Below the pieces are notes generated by a model. That model was not told where the DNA came from, did no database searches, and was given only the letters and a program-made list of their open reading frames with translations. A program made the position numbers and the translations under genes. Source: a bacterium (GTDB lineage: Bacteria > Patescibacteriota > Minisyncoccia > UBA6257 > 02-FULL-45-10c). From it: a stretch of 64,000 bases of DNA. Positions 1 through 52,765 of this stretch are shown piece by piece (within the stretch, counting starts at the first letter, position 1; the number at the start of each line of letters is the position of its first letter). Location of the stretch: NCBI GenBank assembly GCA_021786945.1, contig JAJYMK010000003.1, positions 37,105-101,104 on the forward strand, read 5' to 3'.

Positions 1-1205
<1,205 letters not shown>

Positions 1206-1380
1206 TAAAATTTTTACTTCGGTAAAAATTTAAGTACGATTATTTATCTTTTGATAAGTATATGAGTGTTGATCGTGGAGCTCTAAGTCACGATTCGCTA
1301 ATTCAATTTATTTTGAAGCGCGTAAGGTTGAGGTAACTAAAAAGTTTTTAAATGACTCAATTACTGCATGAATAATAAAA

Positions 1381-1404
1381 AGCGCCTTGTCGGCGTTTTT
1401 TATT
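1381..1404 (+). terminator. Weak rho-independent terminator downstream of 16S (gcgcc-ttgtc-ggcgt stem plus T-run)
   Basis: Short GC stem followed by TTTTTTATTTTT. Confidence 0.35.
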
Positions 1405-1442
1405 TTTAAAAAAATAAAGTCTTGTGATATAATATAAAAACA

Positions 1443-18903: not shown

Positions 18904-18946
18904 ATATAGTTGCCAAACCGTTTCAAATCTGCAATAATATAAACCT

Positions 18947-19156
18947 ATGTTAATCAAAAGAAAAGAAGGGGAGTCGGTAAGTTCGCTTTTATATCGCTTT
19001 TCCAAAAGAGTTCAGCAAAGCGGAATTTTGCGTGAAGCAAAAAAGAGAAAGCGCCATGATAGGCCGGTTTCTCGAATTAAAAGAAAACTTTCTGCTCTTC
19101 ATAGAGTAGCCAAGAAAAAAGAGACAGAGAGAATGAAAAAGTTGGGTTTGGCTTAA
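18947..19156 (+). CDS. rpsU: Ribosomal protein S21
   Basis: 69-aa basic protein: KRKEGESVSSLLYRFSKRVQQSGILREAKKRKRHDRP. Confidence 0.7.
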   Translation: MLIKRKEGESVSSLLYRFSKRVQQSGILREAKKRKRHDRPVSRIKRKLSALHRVAKKKETERMKKLGLA

Positions 19157-19302
19157 TTTATTTTTTATGCCAGGCAGTGAAAATTCAATTGATCCGCAAA
19201 AGCGGCCGGTTATTGAATAAAAATTATTGTTTGGCAACAAATACGATTATTTCAATTTAAGTCGAAATTAACTAATTATTATTGAATTTCTACTGACCTG
19301 GT

Positions 19303-34563: not shown

Positions 34564-34716
34564 ATAAAAATTATATCAATTATCTAAATTTAAAAAAGAC
34601 CCCGAAATTAAATTTCGAGGCATTTCCAGAGACTCACGACTGGGCTCGCTGTCTGGGACGATGTTGGAACCCTTTTTGGGGTAAAAGAGAGGGTGGGCGA
34701 GTAAGTTTAGGTTATA

Positions 34717-34745
34717 TTGACAAATATTGCCTAGTATGTTAATAT
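34717..34745 (+). promoter_or_regulatory. Canonical sigma70 promoter: TTGACA, 17 nt, TAATAT
   Basis: -35 at 34717-34722 and -10 at 34740-34745. A 13-bp perfect palindrome GTGTCTaAGACAC lies at 34764-34776. An AGGAG SD precedes the ATG at 34819. Confidence 0.55.
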
Positions 34746-34818
34746 ATAACAATTGTAGGAACGGTGTCTAAGACACTGAATCTTATGATAGTACCTTGTT
34801 TTTACTTTAGGAGTATTT

Positions 34819-41722: not shown

Positions 41723-42517
41723 ATGAATATCCTAGAAATAATACAATTCGCATTTGTTCAGAAAGCTTTCATAGCCGGTAGCTTTGTTGCCATGCTCTGC
41801 TCAATTTTGGGATTATTTTTAGTTCTTCAAAAGATGTCTTTGATAGGCGATGGTTTGTCGCATGTAAGTTTTGGTGCAGTAGCCCTCGGAATATTTTTTG
41901 GAATTTACCCTATATATTTTGCCCTGCCCGTCGTGGCTTTGGCCTCGGTTTTGATTTTAAAATTAGCCAAGAAAGGAAGGCTCTATAAGGATACCGCTAT
42001 AGGTATAGTTTCGGCCACGGGAATAGCCGGCGGTGTTATTATTGCCAGTATCGCAGGAGGATTCAATGTTGATCTATTCAGTTATTTATTTGGAAATATT
42101 TTGGCGATAAGTAATGCTGAAGTTATTATTTCTATAGCATTGTCACTTATAGTTTTGGCGATTGTTTATTTCTTTTATTACGATCTTTTTTCGATTACCT
42201 TCAATGAAGATTATGCAAAAACAACCGGAGTTAAAACCGAACTTATAAATTCTTTGTTGGTTGTTCTTACCGCAATTACCGCCGTGTTAGCCGTAAAAGT
42301 TGTTGGTGTTATGCTTGTTTCTGCTCTTTTGATAATTCCGGCTACAACAGCCCTACAATTTAAAGCCGGATTCAAAGCGACTATTTTCCTTGCGGCTATA
42401 TTTTCCATTTTTTCGGTTTTGGCGGGCATTATTTTATCTATAATTTTAAATATACCGGCGGGAGCATCTATTGTAATGATAAGCCTTGTTTTATTTGCAA
42501 TTTCTTTGCTTTTTTAG
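41723..42517 (+). CDS. znuB: Metal ABC transporter permease (ZnuB-like)
   Basis: 8-TM ABC-3 family permease profile. Confidence 0.8.
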   Translation: MNILEIIQFAFVQKAFIAGSFVAMLCSILGLFLVLQKMSLIGDGLSHVSFGAVALGIFFGIYPIYFALPVVALASVLILKLAKKGRLYKDTAIGIVSATGIAGGVIIASIAGGFNVDLFSYLFGNILAISNAEVIISIALSLIVLAIVYFFYYDLFSITFNEDYAKTTGVKTELINSLLVVLTAITAVLAVKVVGVMLVSALLIIPATTALQFKAGFKATIFLAAIFSIFSVLAGIILSIILNIPAGASIVMISLVLFAISLLF

Positions 42518-42893
42518 AAAAATTTGCTTTTTATTTAGGCTGGTGTTATCTTTCAACTAAATAAATTACAGAATCTATCCCAATAATAATTCCTAAACGC
42601 GTTGCTGGGATAAGTTGAAAATTTCAAGGCATGCCGACGAGCTAGTGGTGTATACCACAGCTAGGAGGCATAACACAGAAATTTTCAATTCTTAGGTCTT
42701 AGGCAGCAACCCTTCGGGATACAGTAAATTTATATACATAACCAGCGTCGCTTGTCGGAAATATAGTTAAAAAACTATAAATTTCCTCCTCGCTCCTTGT
42801 TCTGTATAAAATTTACTTGTATCGCGTTTGGAAGTTATTATTGGAATAGATTCTATACACCCCTATGTTACAAAACGAGGGGGTTTTGTGTGT
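42518..42893 (+). ncRNA. Hairpin-rich noncoding region: candidate small RNA or structured 5' leader of uvrBA
   Basis: No ORF in any frame. Nested inverted repeats TATCCCA/TGGGATA (42576-42612) and TTGAAAATTTC/GAAATTTTCAA (42615-42688) enclose a GC-rich core containing GGCATGCC. A cccUUCGggg tetraloop hairpin lies at 42710-42719. A terminator-like hairpin ccccTATGTTACAAAACGAgggg plus T-run (42860-42890) ends 3 nt before the uvrB ATG. Confidence 0.3.
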
Positions 42894-44714
42894 ATGGAAA
42901 AATTTAAACTAAAATCACAATTTAAACCGGCGGGAAGCCAACCTGAAGCCATTGATGGCTTGGTTAAGGGTCTTAAAAAAGGATTGGGTTATCAAACTCT
43001 ACTTGGTGTAACTGGTAGTGGTAAAACTTTTACCATGGCAAATGTAATAGAAAAGATACAAAAACCGACTTTGGTTATTGCCCCAAACAAGACCCTTGCC
43101 GCTCAGCTTTATCAGGAATACAAAGCTTTTTTTCCGGAAAATAAAGTTTGCTATTTTGTTTCGTATTATGACTATTATCAGCCGGAAGCCTATATTCCCG
43201 TAACCGATACTTATATTGATAAGGAAGCAATGATAAACGAAGAGATAGACCGATTCAGGCATTTGGCCACCTCGGCCCTTTTAACCAGGCGGGACGTCAT
43301 TGTGGTTGCGTCGGTATCCTGTATTTATAACCTTGGTTTACCCGAAAGATATTTTGAGTCGATTATAAAATTGAATGTCGGACAACTTATTACTAGGGGA
43401 GATCTGATAAAGCAATTAATAAGAATTGGATTTACTAGAAACAATACCGTTGTTAAGCGTGGACAGTTTAGGGTGCGCGGAGATGTTTTTGAAATAATTG
43501 CGGCCTCTGAAGAATTAATTTATAGAGTAGAAATTAAAGACCAGAAAATTATTGGCTTGGCGGTATTGGAAAAAACAACTAGAACGATAAAAGAAGAATT
43601 GAATGATCTGATTATTTTTCCGCCAAAACATTTCGTGACCAGTATTCCGGATAGGGAACGGGCCATAAAAGACATAAAAGAGGAGCTTAAAGAAAGACTG
43701 AAATATTTAGAAAAAAATGGATTGCTTTTGGAAGCGGAAAGGCTTGAAAGGCGAACCAAATATGATTTAGAAATGATTAAAACTCTTGGTTTTTGCCATG
43801 GAATAGAAAATTATTCCAGGCATTTGGCCGGAAAGCTTCCGGGTGAACCGCCAGATACTCTTTTAGAATATTTCCCTAAAGATAAAGACGGAAAACCAGA
43901 TTTTTTGACCGTTATAGACGAAAGCCATATTGCCGTGCCGCAAATTTCCGGAATGTACGCAGGAGATCAGGCTAGAAAAAAGGTTTTGGCCGAACACGGC
44001 TGGAGATTGCCTTCGGCATTGGATAACAGGCCGCTTAATTTTAAGGAATTTAAAGAAAGAATAGGTCAAACGATATTTACTTCGGCGACTCCGGGAATTT
44101 TTGAAAAAGAAGTTTCCGATAAAGTCGTTGAACAGATTGTCAGGCCAACGGGTTTAACTGATCCCCGAATAGAAATAAGGCCGGTATTCGACAAAGAGAA
44201 AAATAGAAGCCAAATTGACGATGTAATGGCTGAAGCGATTATAGCCGCCAGTAAAGATGAGAGGACGTTGATTGTTACCTTAACCAAAAAAATGGCGGAA
44301 GAGCTTAATGATTTTTTGAAAGAAAAGGGATTTAAATCGGCCTATATGCATAGCGATACCAAGACTATAGACAGAACAAAGATTTTGGCTGATTTTAGAA
44401 AAAAAGAATTTGATATTTTGATTGGTATTAATCTTTTGCGTGAAGGTTTGGATTTACCCGAAGTATCTTTGGTGGCTATTTTGGACGCCGACAGCGAAGG
44501 ATTTCTGCGCTCTGAGACTTCGCTTATTCAGACTATGGGACGCGCCGCCAGAAACGTAGAGGGAAAGGTTATTTTGTACGCGGATAAGATAACGGGATCC
44601 ATGAAGCGGGCAATAGACGAGTGTGAACGCAGAAGAGAGATTCAGTTGGAATACAACAAAAAATATAAAATTACGCCAAAGTCGATTAAAAAAGAAATTA
44701 GGGAATTTGACTAA
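42894..44714 (+). CDS. uvrB: Excinuclease ABC subunit B
   Basis: MEKFKLKSQFKPAGSQPEAI, helicase motifs (GVTGSGKT, DESH) and a beta-hairpin region. The ORF-track start 42828 is probably 5'-extended. Confidence 0.92.
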   Translation: MEKFKLKSQFKPAGSQPEAIDGLVKGLKKGLGYQTLLGVTGSGKTFTMANVIEKIQKPTLVIAPNKTLAAQLYQEYKAFFPENKVCYFVSYYDYYQPEAYIPVTDTYIDKEAMINEEIDRFRHLATSALLTRRDVIVVASVSCIYNLGLPERYFESIIKLNVGQLITRGDLIKQLIRIGFTRNNTVVKRGQFRVRGDVFEIIAASEELIYRVEIKDQKIIGLAVLEKTTRTIKEELNDLIIFPPKHFVTSIPDRERAIKDIKEELKERLKYLEKNGLLLEAERLERRTKYDLEMIKTLGFCHGIENYSRHLAGKLPGEPPDTLLEYFPKDKDGKPDFLTVIDESHIAVPQISGMYAGDQARKKVLAEHGWRLPSALDNRPLNFKEFKERIGQTIFTSATPGIFEKEVSDKVVEQIVRPTGLTDPRIEIRPVFDKEKNRSQIDDVMAEAIIAASKDERTLIVTLTKKMAEELNDFLKEKGFKSAYMHSDTKTIDRTKILADFRKKEFDILIGINLLREGLDLPEVSLVAILDADSEGFLRSETSLIQTMGRAARNVEGKVILYADKITGSMKRAIDECERRREIQLEYNKKYKITPKSIKKEIREFD

Positions 44715-52493: not shown

Positions 52494-52496
52494 AAC

Positions 52497-52748
52497 ATGT
52501 TTGATAAATTTAAACAATTAGCCCAGCTTAAAGGATTACAGAATGAAATAGCAAAAGAAAATTTTTCCGCGGAAATTGACGGTGTAAGAGTCGTGGTAAA
52601 TGGCGCAATGTCCGTTGAAGAAATTGTTTTAAATCAATCTTTAGACATTGAACGACAGGCCGAAGTTGTAAAAAAATGCGTTAACGAGGCTATGAAAAAA
52701 GCCCAGGTCGGCGCCGCCAAAAAATTGGCGGGAATGAACTTGTTTTAA
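52497..52748 (+). CDS. YbaB/EbfC family nucleoid-associated protein
   Basis: ~83 aa with the YbaB pattern (LAQLKGLQNEIAKE...VNGAMSVEEI). Confidence 0.6.
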   Translation: MFDKFKQLAQLKGLQNEIAKENFSAEIDGVRVVVNGAMSVEEIVLNQSLDIERQAEVVKKCVNEAMKKAQVGAAKKLAGMNLF

Positions 52749-52765
52749 CAAATAGCCGATTTTGC

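What the first reader, a model, noticed from the sequence alone, without database searches (positions are those of the whole stretch)
42518..42893. 375-bp ORF-free, hairpin-dense region ending in a terminator 3 nt before the uvrB start
In a genome with minimal spacers this is the longest noncoding gap, and it is highly structured. It has nested perfect inverted repeats of 7 and 11 bp around a GC-rich core, a cccUUCGggg tetraloop hairpin, and a terminator-like hairpin abutting the uvrB ATG with no SD. It could be an independent small RNA or a cis-acting attenuator of the uvrBA-CYTH-uvrC operon. I could not match it to RNase P, tmRNA, SRP RNA or common riboswitch consensus sequences.
Basis: seen in the sequence. 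Interest (0 to 1): 0.5.

Follow-up and report, generated by a model that had tools for sequence, protein, structure and literature searches.

The report
Mobile palindromic insert in uvrB leader
The hairpin-dense gap before uvrB is mostly a 286-bp non-coding, transposon-like palindromic insertion that close relatives lack, sitting inside a short uvrB promoter and leader hairpin that many related bacteria share.

Summary
42518-42893 is ORF-free, the longest gap in the window (376 nt; median 41.5), and folds far better than shuffles (z -9.2 on +, -12.4 on -). It is three things, not one RNA.

(1) 42518-42569 holds a promoter-like TTGCTT-17-TGnTATCTT and an A/U-rich leader, shared with relatives.

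(2) 42570-42855 is a 286-bp insert with 32-35-bp terminal inverted repeats flanked by TAC/TAC. It folds into a linker-free four-way junction. Five relatives that keep znuB-uvrB synteny lack it (gaps 4-168 nt). A copy 89% identical over the 107 nt available lies in an unrelated context in another metagenome. It matches no Rfam family. Best reading: a MITE-like mobile element landed in the uvrB leader.

(3) 42859-42887 is a CCCC...GGGG hairpin plus U-run. It predates the insert, recurs upstream of uvrB in about 20 Patescibacteria loci and upstream of uvrA in three, and hits nothing else in 920 kb. It may be an undescribed excision-repair leader element.

"No SD" is genome-wide: the 16S 3' end lacks CCUCC.

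Limits: one full and one partial copy, no transposase partner, no transcript data.

Verdict: a new member of a known kind; moderate-low interest.

The parts
41723..42517 (+). znuB-like ABC-3 metal-transporter permease, the last gene of the znuABC-like cluster; upstream boundary of the gap
   Evidence: Pfam ABC-3, E 9e-65; ORF; same neighbours in relatives
42524..42552 (+). Promoter-like element: -35 TTGCTT (42524-29), 17-nt spacer, extended -10 TGnTATCTT (42544-52)
   Evidence: Read directly from the sequence. The same arrangement appears in L085 (TTGCTT/TGtTATTGT), L006, L089, L004/5 (TTGACA/TTGACT), L019 (TTGACA-17-TATAAT) and L021. Not listed by the simple scan, because its -35 matches only 3 of 6. 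Inferred, not mapped.
42553..42569 (+). A/U-rich proximal leader (CAACTAAATAAATTAC), the ancestral sequence into which the element inserted
   Evidence: Collinear with L085. L019, L021, L024 and L058 carry TAAATAAAT(C/T)A at the same place before their hairpin.
42567..42569 (.). Left copy of a possible 3-bp target-site duplication (TAC). The alternative is a TA duplication with a mismatched terminal base.
   Evidence: Sequence. Homology to L100 starts at 42570. A 3-bp repeat is weak evidence on its own.
42570..42855 (.). 286-bp inserted non-coding palindromic element (MITE-like), GC 37%
   Evidence: Absent from 5 syntenic relatives. Homolog in another context, L100. MFE about -110 kcal/mol. 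No Rfam hit at E<=10.
42570..42601 (.). Left terminal inverted repeat / 5' strand of closing helix P1
   Evidence: the repeat finder I1: 35 nt, 86% complementary. 42570-42606 is 100% identical in L100.
42602..42709 (.). Arm P2: a 108-nt imperfect hairpin containing the 11-bp perfect repeat and the apical hairpin 42639-42663
   Evidence: Against L100, the apical loop differs at 4 of 6 positions. The stem has T42643C with A42659G (U-A to C-G) and G42639A with A42663T (G.A to A-U).
42710..42718 (.). Arm P3: a minimal CCCUUCGGG hairpin at the junction
42719..42822 (.). Arm P4: a 104-nt A/T-rich imperfect hairpin (GC 30%)
   Evidence: (I2, I25)
42823..42855 (.). Right terminal inverted repeat / 3' strand of P1. 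It contains a chance-level outward promoter-like match, TTTACT-18-TATTAT (42812-42841).
   Evidence: 2 promoter-like sites found against 2.5 expected
42856..42858 (.). Right copy of the possible TAC duplication
42859..42887 (+). Conserved uvrB leader hairpin ACCCCUAUGUUACAAAACGAGGGGG plus UUUU (dG -11.8 kcal/mol); pre-dates the insertion
   Evidence: Identical in L085/L086, 4 differences in L089. Motif hits occur only upstream of uvrB and uvrA. Hairpin forms in all 20 sequences folded. No Rfam family.
42894..44714 (+). uvrB, first gene of uvrB-uvrA-CYTH-uvrC
   Evidence: Pfam UvrB, UvrB_inter, Helicase_C; 82-87% identity to Paceibacterota UvrB

Best explanation
The region is composite. The ancestral state is still seen in close relatives: a ~90-nt spacer with a sigma-70-like promoter, a short A/U-rich leader and a CCCC...GGGG hairpin with a U-run just before the uvrB start. 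In the window's lineage a 286-bp non-coding element (42570-42855) inserted 3 nt upstream of that hairpin. The element has 32-35-bp terminal inverted repeats and is flanked by TAC on both sides. I read it as a non-autonomous, MITE-like transposable element, moved in trans by a transposase that recognises its ends. As RNA or single-stranded DNA it closes on itself through a ~32-bp helix formed by the two ends, and three internal arms meet at a linker-free four-way junction. If the native promoter is used, the element is co-transcribed as an extra, self-contained domain of the uvrB 5' leader, and the closing helix brings the two halves of the old leader back together. Its effect on uvrB is probably small or modulatory, for instance through a long double-stranded stem that RNase III could cut, as shown for Correia elements. 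Shown: the insertion, the inverted ends, the extreme foldability, a second copy in another context, and conservation of the flanking promoter and hairpin. Inferred: transposase-mediated mobility, transcription, and any effect on uvrB.
For: Insertion: relatives with ZnuB 88, 82, 81, 78 and 77% identical keep znuB followed directly by uvrB, with gaps of 90, 20, 4, 4 and 168 nt. The window's gap minus 42570-42857 is ~88 nt and collinear with L085's 90 nt. Ends: a 35-nt, 86%-complementary inverted repeat, with TAC at 42567-69 and 42856-58. No coding capacity. Mobility: L100 carries a copy 88.8% identical over 107 nt. Homology begins exactly at AGAATC, and the first 37 nt are identical. It sits next to an unrelated Tricorn/PD40-type gene in the opposite orientation relative to the neighbouring gene. 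Both insertion sites share ATAAATT two nt upstream of the end. Foldability: z -9.2 and -12.4, with an MFE of about -110 kcal/mol, similar to the -113 quoted for the Coxiella MITE QMITE2 (PMC10969869). Size, AT-richness, intergenic AT-rich target and stable stem-loop transcript fit the published MITE definition (PMC10969869). No Rfam family at E<=10 on either strand. No strand bias in G.U pairs: 7 against 3, p=0.34. That is what a DNA palindrome would give, rather than a strand-specific RNA.
Against: Only one full and one partial copy are known, and there is one copy in the 64-kb window. Multi-copy status is therefore unproven. No autonomous IS with matching ends was found. The TIR 20-mer gave 23 metagenome hits, of which only L100 is real. 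A 3-bp flanking repeat can be chance, and L100's left flank (TTG) supports neither TA nor TAC as a fixed target. A linker-free four-way junction with a UUCG-capped arm is more elaborate than the simple rod usual for MITEs. The L100 comparison shows two coordinated stem changes and a fast-changing loop, which would also fit selection on an RNA structure. The middle of the element (42639-42804) is missing from the independent Logan contigs available here, which stop at 42638 and resume at 42805.
Confidence: 0.6

Rival explanations
1. The 286-nt core is a gene for a new structured non-coding RNA: a four-way junction with a long closing helix. It was acquired horizontally or is itself mobile, and it acts in trans or as a processed RNA rather than being a passive transposon relic.
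For: Extreme folding z-scores. A linker-free four-way junction and a UUCG loop on the + strand. Against L100, substitutions cluster in a loop (4 of 6) and as two coordinated stem changes, while 37 nt of the closing helix are invariant. A promoter-like element lies upstream and a hairpin with a U-run downstream on the + strand.
Against: The upstream promoter-like element and downstream hairpin belong to uvrB and exist without the insert. The element is absent from all close relatives. The two copies have opposite orientation relative to the adjacent gene. There is no strand asymmetry in G.U pairs, no Rfam hit, and both strands fold equally well. Coordinated changes in a palindrome can also arise by DNA-level arm-to-arm correction.
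Confidence: 0.15
2. The whole 375-nt region is one cis-regulatory leader (a riboswitch or attenuator) of the uvrBA-CYTH-uvrC operon.
For: It lies between a promoter-like element and uvrB on the sense strand. It ends in a hairpin with a U-run. That terminal hairpin is conserved upstream of uvrB and uvrA.
Against: The 286-nt core is missing from every relative that has the same leader. A near-identical copy sits next to an unrelated gene. No riboswitch family matches. Only the flanking ~90 nt behave as a conserved leader.
Confidence: 0.05
3. The insert is an intervening sequence: a palindromic spacer that is transcribed and then excised or cleaved at its long closing helix by RNase III, like rRNA IVSs and Correia elements. 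The mature uvrB mRNA would then start just before the leader hairpin. This overlaps with the MITE reading and concerns function rather than origin.
For: The closing helix of ~32 bp of near-perfect duplex would be a typical RNase III substrate. RNase III cleavage of Correia-containing mRNAs at the inverted repeats is documented (PMC10969869). The insert lies within the predicted 5' leader.
Against: No transcript or cleavage data exist. RNase III presence in this genome was not checked. Nothing requires processing for uvrB expression.
Confidence: 0.15
4. Assembly artefact: the interior of the palindrome (42639-42804) is a misjoin or a collapsed or chimeric hairpin in the MAG.
For: Logan contigs from three runs all stop at 42638, and one resumes at 42805. 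The L100 contig also ends inside the element. L087 ends inside the leader hairpin.
Against: Both ends of the element, 69 and 51 nt inward, are reproduced exactly in independent assemblies. L100 extends through the equivalent of 42667 with a homologous, not identical, sequence. The look-up reports the same ZnuB and UvrB proteins on several contigs of 50 kb to 1 Mb, though their DNA was not returned. Contig breaks at strong hairpins are a common assembler behaviour.
Confidence: 0.05

Closest known systems
Prokaryotic MITEs, in particular Neisseria Correia repeat-enclosed elements (CREE)
   Same: It is short (<500 bp), non-coding and AT-rich, with terminal inverted repeats and a short flanking direct repeat. 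It is inserted in an AT-rich intergenic site just upstream of a gene, and the transcript is predicted to form a very stable stem-loop (definition in PMC10969869). Correia elements sit upstream of genes, can be cut by RNase III at the inverted repeats, and one provides a promoter usable for N. gonorrhoeae uvrB (PMC10969869 citing Black et al. 1995). That is a striking parallel in location.
   Different: At 286 bp it is about twice the size of a Correia element. Its inverted repeats are 32-35 bp, at or above the usual range. The predicted fold is a four-way junction rather than a single rod. No sequence similarity was found to anything in the plasmid or phage collections. Copy number and the partner transposase are unknown. 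The host is a Patescibacteria (CPR) genome, and the two MITE papers consulted do not cover that group.
Coxiella burnetii QMITE2
   Same: Comparable architecture: direct repeats, TIRs of 23-29 bp and a core of 113-145 bp. The predicted transcript stability is -113 kcal/mol, against about -110 here.
   Different: There is no sequence relationship. QMITE2 is multi-copy within one genome, which could not be tested here.
IS200/IS605-derived palindrome-associated elements (PATEs)
   Same: They are non-coding, hairpin-rich and move as single-stranded DNA. The left flank TTAC in the window equals the IS608 target, as I recall it.
   Different: PATEs lack long terminal inverted repeats and make no target duplication. 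The L100 copy is preceded by TTTG, not TTAC. Rejected.
Intrinsic terminators and leader attenuators (for the 42859-42887 hairpin only)
   Same: It has a G+C-rich stem followed by a U-run and lies between a promoter-like element and the start codon. Distal stem sequences differ between genomes but stay complementary.
   Different: The U-run is short (3-5 U) and fails a standard terminator scan. The base of the stem (CCCC/GGGG), a preceding TA/TAC and an A-rich loop (YAAAAC) are conserved in sequence, which ordinary terminators are not. No alternative antiterminator pairing was identified. No Rfam family matches.

Membership tests
MITE (miniature inverted-repeat transposable element) | Length under ~500 bp with no transposase or other ORF | tested here: met
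   286 bp; the longest ORFs are 31-37 aa in any frame
MITE (miniature inverted-repeat transposable element) | Terminal inverted repeats | tested here: met
   42567-42601 against 42823-42857, 35 nt, 86% complementary. The left repeat is 100% conserved in L100.
MITE (miniature inverted-repeat transposable element) | Target-site duplication flanking the element | tested here: inconclusive
   TAC at 42567-69 and 42856-58, or TA with a mismatched end base. A 2-3-bp repeat can be chance, and the right end of L100 is not available.
MITE (miniature inverted-repeat transposable element) | Presence/absence polymorphism: an empty site in related genomes | tested here: met
   Five syntenic relatives lack it. 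L085's 90-nt spacer is collinear with the window's flanks.
MITE (miniature inverted-repeat transposable element) | Multiple copies at unrelated loci | tested here: inconclusive
   One further copy in an unrelated context in another metagenome (L100). There is a single copy in the 64-kb window. The rest of the genome could not be searched.
MITE (miniature inverted-repeat transposable element) | A cognate autonomous IS with the same ends, supplying the transposase | not testable with these tools
   No second inverted copy lies near any of the 23 metagenome TIR hits.
MITE (miniature inverted-repeat transposable element) | AT-rich, in an AT-rich intergenic target, with a transcript predicted to form a stable stem-loop | tested here: met
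   GC 37%. Target is AAATAAATTAC. MFE is about -110 kcal/mol, z -9 to -12.
Any described RNA family (Rfam 15: riboswitches, RNase P, tmRNA, SRP, 6S, ribozymes, introns, HEARO etc.) | Covariance-model match | tested here: not met
   No match on either strand of 42400-43000 apart from one chance hit at E=7.3 outside the element. Only 16S and one tRNA reach gathering score in the window.
   For the 286-nt core: absent in all 80 uvrB loci and in 5 syntenic relatives
   At E<0.05 the profile gave 24 hits in 920 kb, all upstream of uvrB or uvrA and mostly its own training sequences. The informative hits from outside the training set are L033 (uvrB) and L007 and L008 (uvrA). A hairpin forms in 20 of 20 sequences.
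Intrinsic (Rho-independent) terminator, for 42859-42887 | G+C-rich stem, short loop, at least 5 U in the 8 nt after the stem | tested here: inconclusive
   The stem and a 4-nt inner loop are present. The tail is UUUUGUGU, with 4 consecutive U, and the scan reported 0 sites.

The most novel reading that the evidence does not exclude
The ~30-nt hairpin that the insertion landed next to (TA-CCCC, A-rich YAAAAC loop, GGGG(C)G-UUU), together with its promoter and A/U-rich leader, is an undescribed cis-regulatory RNA element of the nucleotide-excision-repair genes uvrA and uvrB in Patescibacteria. It would act as an attenuator or a protein-binding leader, in organisms that here lack the 16S anti-Shine-Dalgarno sequence and seem mostly to use leaderless mRNAs. 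On this reading the palindromic insert is tolerated, or even co-opted, because its closing helix restores the contiguity of that leader.
Probability: 0.3. Interest if true: 0.6.

Novelty: new member of a known kind. Interest (0 to 1): 0.35.

Why it matters
For annotators, this is a caution. The most striking "structured RNA" signal in a compact CPR genome is best explained as a selfish palindromic insertion rather than a conserved riboregulator, and comparison with syntenic relatives settles that quickly. It would also be one of the few documented MITE-like elements in Patescibacteria, whose small genomes are usually thought poor in mobile DNA. The location echoes the Neisseria Correia element upstream of uvrB.

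The more useful by-product is the conserved promoter-leader-hairpin module upstream of uvrB and uvrA across Patescibacteria. If it is regulatory, it gives a handle on how DNA-repair genes are controlled in a lineage with no cultured genetics and, in this genome, no Shine-Dalgarno mechanism.

Tried and rejected
- **Rfam:** gathering thresholds on the whole window, E<=10 on 42400-43000, and searches of 22 related loci found nothing relevant. ARAGORN found one tRNA-Asn and nothing else.
- **Second copy in the window or in 117 fetched loci:** blastn and nhmmer found only the same-strain Logan contigs and L100. A weak L096 hit lies inside a 300-aa open reading frame, so it is a chance match.
- **Structural analogues upstream of uvrB in relatives with long gaps:** none has a comparable z-score.
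- **Exact-pattern scans:**
  - The junction 21-mer gave 0 hits in viral and metagenome contigs.
  - The TIR 20-mer gave 2 viral hits, both chance matches in 25-27% GC contigs, and 23 metagenome hits, of which only L100 is real.
  - Two further conserved 20-23-mers gave 0 viral hits.
- **blastn 'distant' against plasmids and phages:** no match.
- **Recovering a full L100-type copy through its neighbour gene:** the only homolog (61% identity, L115) has no element.
- **Finding copies through spurious ORFs:** a 31-aa frame of the element searched against 1.84 billion proteins gave only unrelated repetitive proteins.
- **RNAalifold on the MAFFT alignment of leader hairpins:** I used per-sequence folds instead and ran no formal covariation test.
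- **Ideas rejected:**
  - preQ1-I riboswitch: some similarity to the hairpin sequence, but no 5' partner strand and no Rfam hit.
  - LexA box: no GAAC-N4-GTTC-like palindrome by eye. The Patescibacteria SOS paper (Sanchez-Osuna et al. 2017) is not held in the library, so its motif was not compared.
  - Leader peptide: the ATG inside the hairpin is not conserved in L019, L021 or L032.
  - DNA inversion switch: the contig break points are not flanked by inverted repeats.
  - IS200/IS605 PATE, retron, and group I or II intron: their defining features are absent.

Full report
**Source and context.** The window comes from a Patescibacteria (CPR) genome of the Paceibacterota/Harrisonbacteria type. 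Its UvrB is 82-87% identical to proteins of such MAGs, and GC content is 36.5%. The gap 42518-42893 lies between a znuB-like ABC-3 permease (41723-42517) and uvrB (ATG at 42894). uvrB is followed by uvrA, a CYTH protein and uvrC (Pfam).

**Observation.** The gap has no ORF longer than 36 aa. It is the longest spacer in the window, 376 nt against 272 for the next and a median of 41.5.
- It folds far better than dinucleotide shuffles: -129.1 kcal/mol with z -9.24 on the + strand, and -131.2 with z -12.44 on the - strand.
- Inside it, three arms meet with no unpaired linker: P2 (42602-42709), P3 (CCCUUCGGG, 42710-42718) and P4 (42719-42822).
- Two details need correction. The UUCG hairpin has only 2-3 base pairs. 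The hairpin next to uvrB does not pass a standard terminator scan.

**Not a known RNA.** Rfam 15 gives nothing on either strand even at E<=10. In the whole window only the 16S rRNA and one tRNA reach gathering score.

**The core is an insertion.**
- I retrieved relatives through ZnuB homologs. Five of them keep znuB immediately followed by uvrB:

| Locus | ZnuB identity | znuB-uvrB gap |
|---|---|---|
| L085/L086 | 88% | 90 nt |
| L116 | 82% | 20 nt |
| L088 | 81% | 4 nt |
| L117 | 78% | 4 nt |
| L089 | 77% | 168 nt |

. None contains the structured core.
- L085's 90-nt spacer is collinear with the window's 42518-42569 plus 42859-42893. The window therefore carries about 286-288 extra nucleotides.
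- None of 80 uvrB loci from GTDB species representatives has anything similar. Their long upstream gaps do not fold unusually.

**A second copy elsewhere.** An exact scan for the terminal repeat in metagenome contigs gave 23 hits, and only one is genuine.
- L100 (Ga0209541_10140862) matches window 42561-42667 at 88.8% identity.
- Homology starts exactly at AGAATC (42570), and the first 37 nt are identical. The contig ends inside the element.
- The flank is unrelated. It is the 5' side of a 712-aa Tricorn/PD40-type gene on the opposite strand.
- Both insertion sites share ATAAATT two nucleotides upstream of the element's end. In the window that sequence is ancestral leader, because L085 and other relatives also have it.
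- TAC flanks the element on both sides (42567-69 and 42856-58).

**Why I read it as MITE-like.** The element is short, non-coding and AT-rich. It has terminal inverted repeats and a possible short target duplication, an empty site in relatives, a copy in another context, and a very stable predicted stem-loop. This fits the published definition of prokaryotic MITEs (PMC10969869).
- The caveats are real. Copy number in the host genome is unknown and no partner transposase was found. The four-way junction is more elaborate than usual.
- Against L100, the apical hairpin 42639-42663 has 4 of 6 loop positions changed and two coordinated stem changes: U-A to C-G, and G.A to A-U. That pattern fits selection on structure, but it can also arise in a DNA palindrome.
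- Strand-specific G.U pairs number 7 on + and 3 on - (p=0.34). The sequence therefore gives no evidence for an RNA of one particular strand.

**What the flanks are.** The remaining ~90 nt are the interesting conserved part.
- Upstream of uvrB in many Patescibacteria there is a sigma-70-like promoter. Examples are L019 (TTGACA-17-TATAAT), L021 and L004/5 (TTGACT or TTGACA), and the window, L085 and L006 (TTGCTT with an extended -10).
- Next comes about 20-30 nt of A/U-rich leader, often TAAATAAAT(C/T)A.
- Then comes a hairpin whose base is CCCC/GGGG, whose loop is A-rich (YAAAAC), and which is followed by (C)GUUU, usually 6-12 nt before the ATG.
- The upstream genes differ between loci, and several have their own terminator before this promoter. 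The module therefore belongs to uvrB.
- A profile of 19 such sequences, searched against 920 kb of fetched DNA on both strands, gave 24 hits at E<0.05, all upstream of uvrB or uvrA. Most of these are the profile's own training sequences, the L089 uvrA site among them. The informative hits from outside the training set are L033 (uvrB) and the uvrA sites in L007 and L008.
- All 20 sequences tested fold into a hairpin at this position, with dG from -6.1 to -16.1 kcal/mol. Their distal stems differ in sequence but remain complementary in most. A few form only the basal stem around a large loop.
- I did not obtain a formal covariation statistic, because stems of different length put the MAFFT alignment out of register.
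- No Rfam family covers the hairpin.
- The insert sits 3 nt upstream of this hairpin, inside the predicted leader.

**The 'no SD' point.** The 16S gene in the window ends GGATCATTTTATTT instead of GGATCACCTCCTTT. Only 5 of 47 genes have an SD-like 4-mer upstream, against a 14% background, and many have TATAAT 5-10 nt before the ATG. The lack of an SD at uvrB is therefore a genome-wide property.

**Mechanism, with confidence.** That 42570-42855 is a lineage-specific insertion I hold at about 0.9. That it is a transposase-mobilised MITE-like element I hold at about 0.6.
- If the native promoter is used, the element is transcribed within the uvrB leader.
- Its ~32-bp closing helix would make it a self-contained domain that brings the two leader halves back together. 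Such a helix is also a plausible RNase III substrate, as shown for Correia elements. A Correia element also lies upstream of N. gonorrhoeae uvrB (PMC10969869).
- These steps are inferred and were not tested.

**Unexplained.** Logan contigs from three sequencing runs all stop at 42638, and one resumes at 42805. Position 42639 is also the first variable site of the apical hairpin in the L100 comparison. This could be strain heterogeneity inside the element or an assembler effect at hairpins. L087 also ends inside the leader hairpin.

**Verdict.** The finding is real, but most of it is an ordinary kind of object, a mobile palindromic insert, in an unusual host. The small conserved hairpin beside it is the part that may repay further work.

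Noticed in passing
window 1150-1215: The 16S rRNA 3' end reads ...GTGCGTGGATCATTTTATTTAAAA, with no CCUCC anti-Shine-Dalgarno sequence. Only 5 of 47 genes in the window have GGAG/GAGG/AGGA upstream (background 14%). Many have a TATAAT box 5-10 nt before the ATG, which suggests widespread leaderless mRNAs.
   Followed up: partly
window 1-1442: The 16S gene (model positions 292-1533) is followed by protein-coding genes, not by a 23S gene, so the rRNA genes are unlinked here.
   Followed up: no
L089 3511-3564; L008 7330-7367; L007 8203-8249: The same promoter, leader and CCCC...GGGG hairpin module occurs upstream of uvrA where uvrA is not directly joined to uvrB. The L007 and L008 sites were not in the profile's training set. 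This suggests an element specific to excision-repair genes.
   Followed up: partly
L001-L003 ends (= window 42638); L084 start (= window 42805); L100 position 1; L087 end: Independent assemblies break inside the palindromic element at identical positions, and one breaks inside the leader hairpin. Either strains differ in the element's interior or assemblers fail at strong hairpins.
   Followed up: partly
L007 3673-4000: A 328-nt intergenic region with 59% GC lies upstream of uvrB in a Harrisonbacteria MAG. It folds at -138.8 kcal/mol on the + strand (z -3.1) and has no Rfam match at gathering score. It may be an unannotated RNA.
   Followed up: no
L115 132-557: A ~430-nt gap without a called gene lies upstream of a 990-aa Tricorn/PD40-type protein. 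It looks relatively G+C-rich by eye in the printed sequence and was not analysed.
   Followed up: no
window 18947-19156: The apparent 400-nt gap at 18904-19302 contains a 69-aa basic ORF (MLIKRKEGESVSSLLYRFSKRVQQSG...) that looks like ribosomal protein S21, so that region is not non-coding.
   Followed up: no
window 52494-52765 and 34564-34818: These are the next-longest spacers in the window (272 and 255 nt). No Rfam family reaches gathering score there, and they were not examined further.
   Followed up: no
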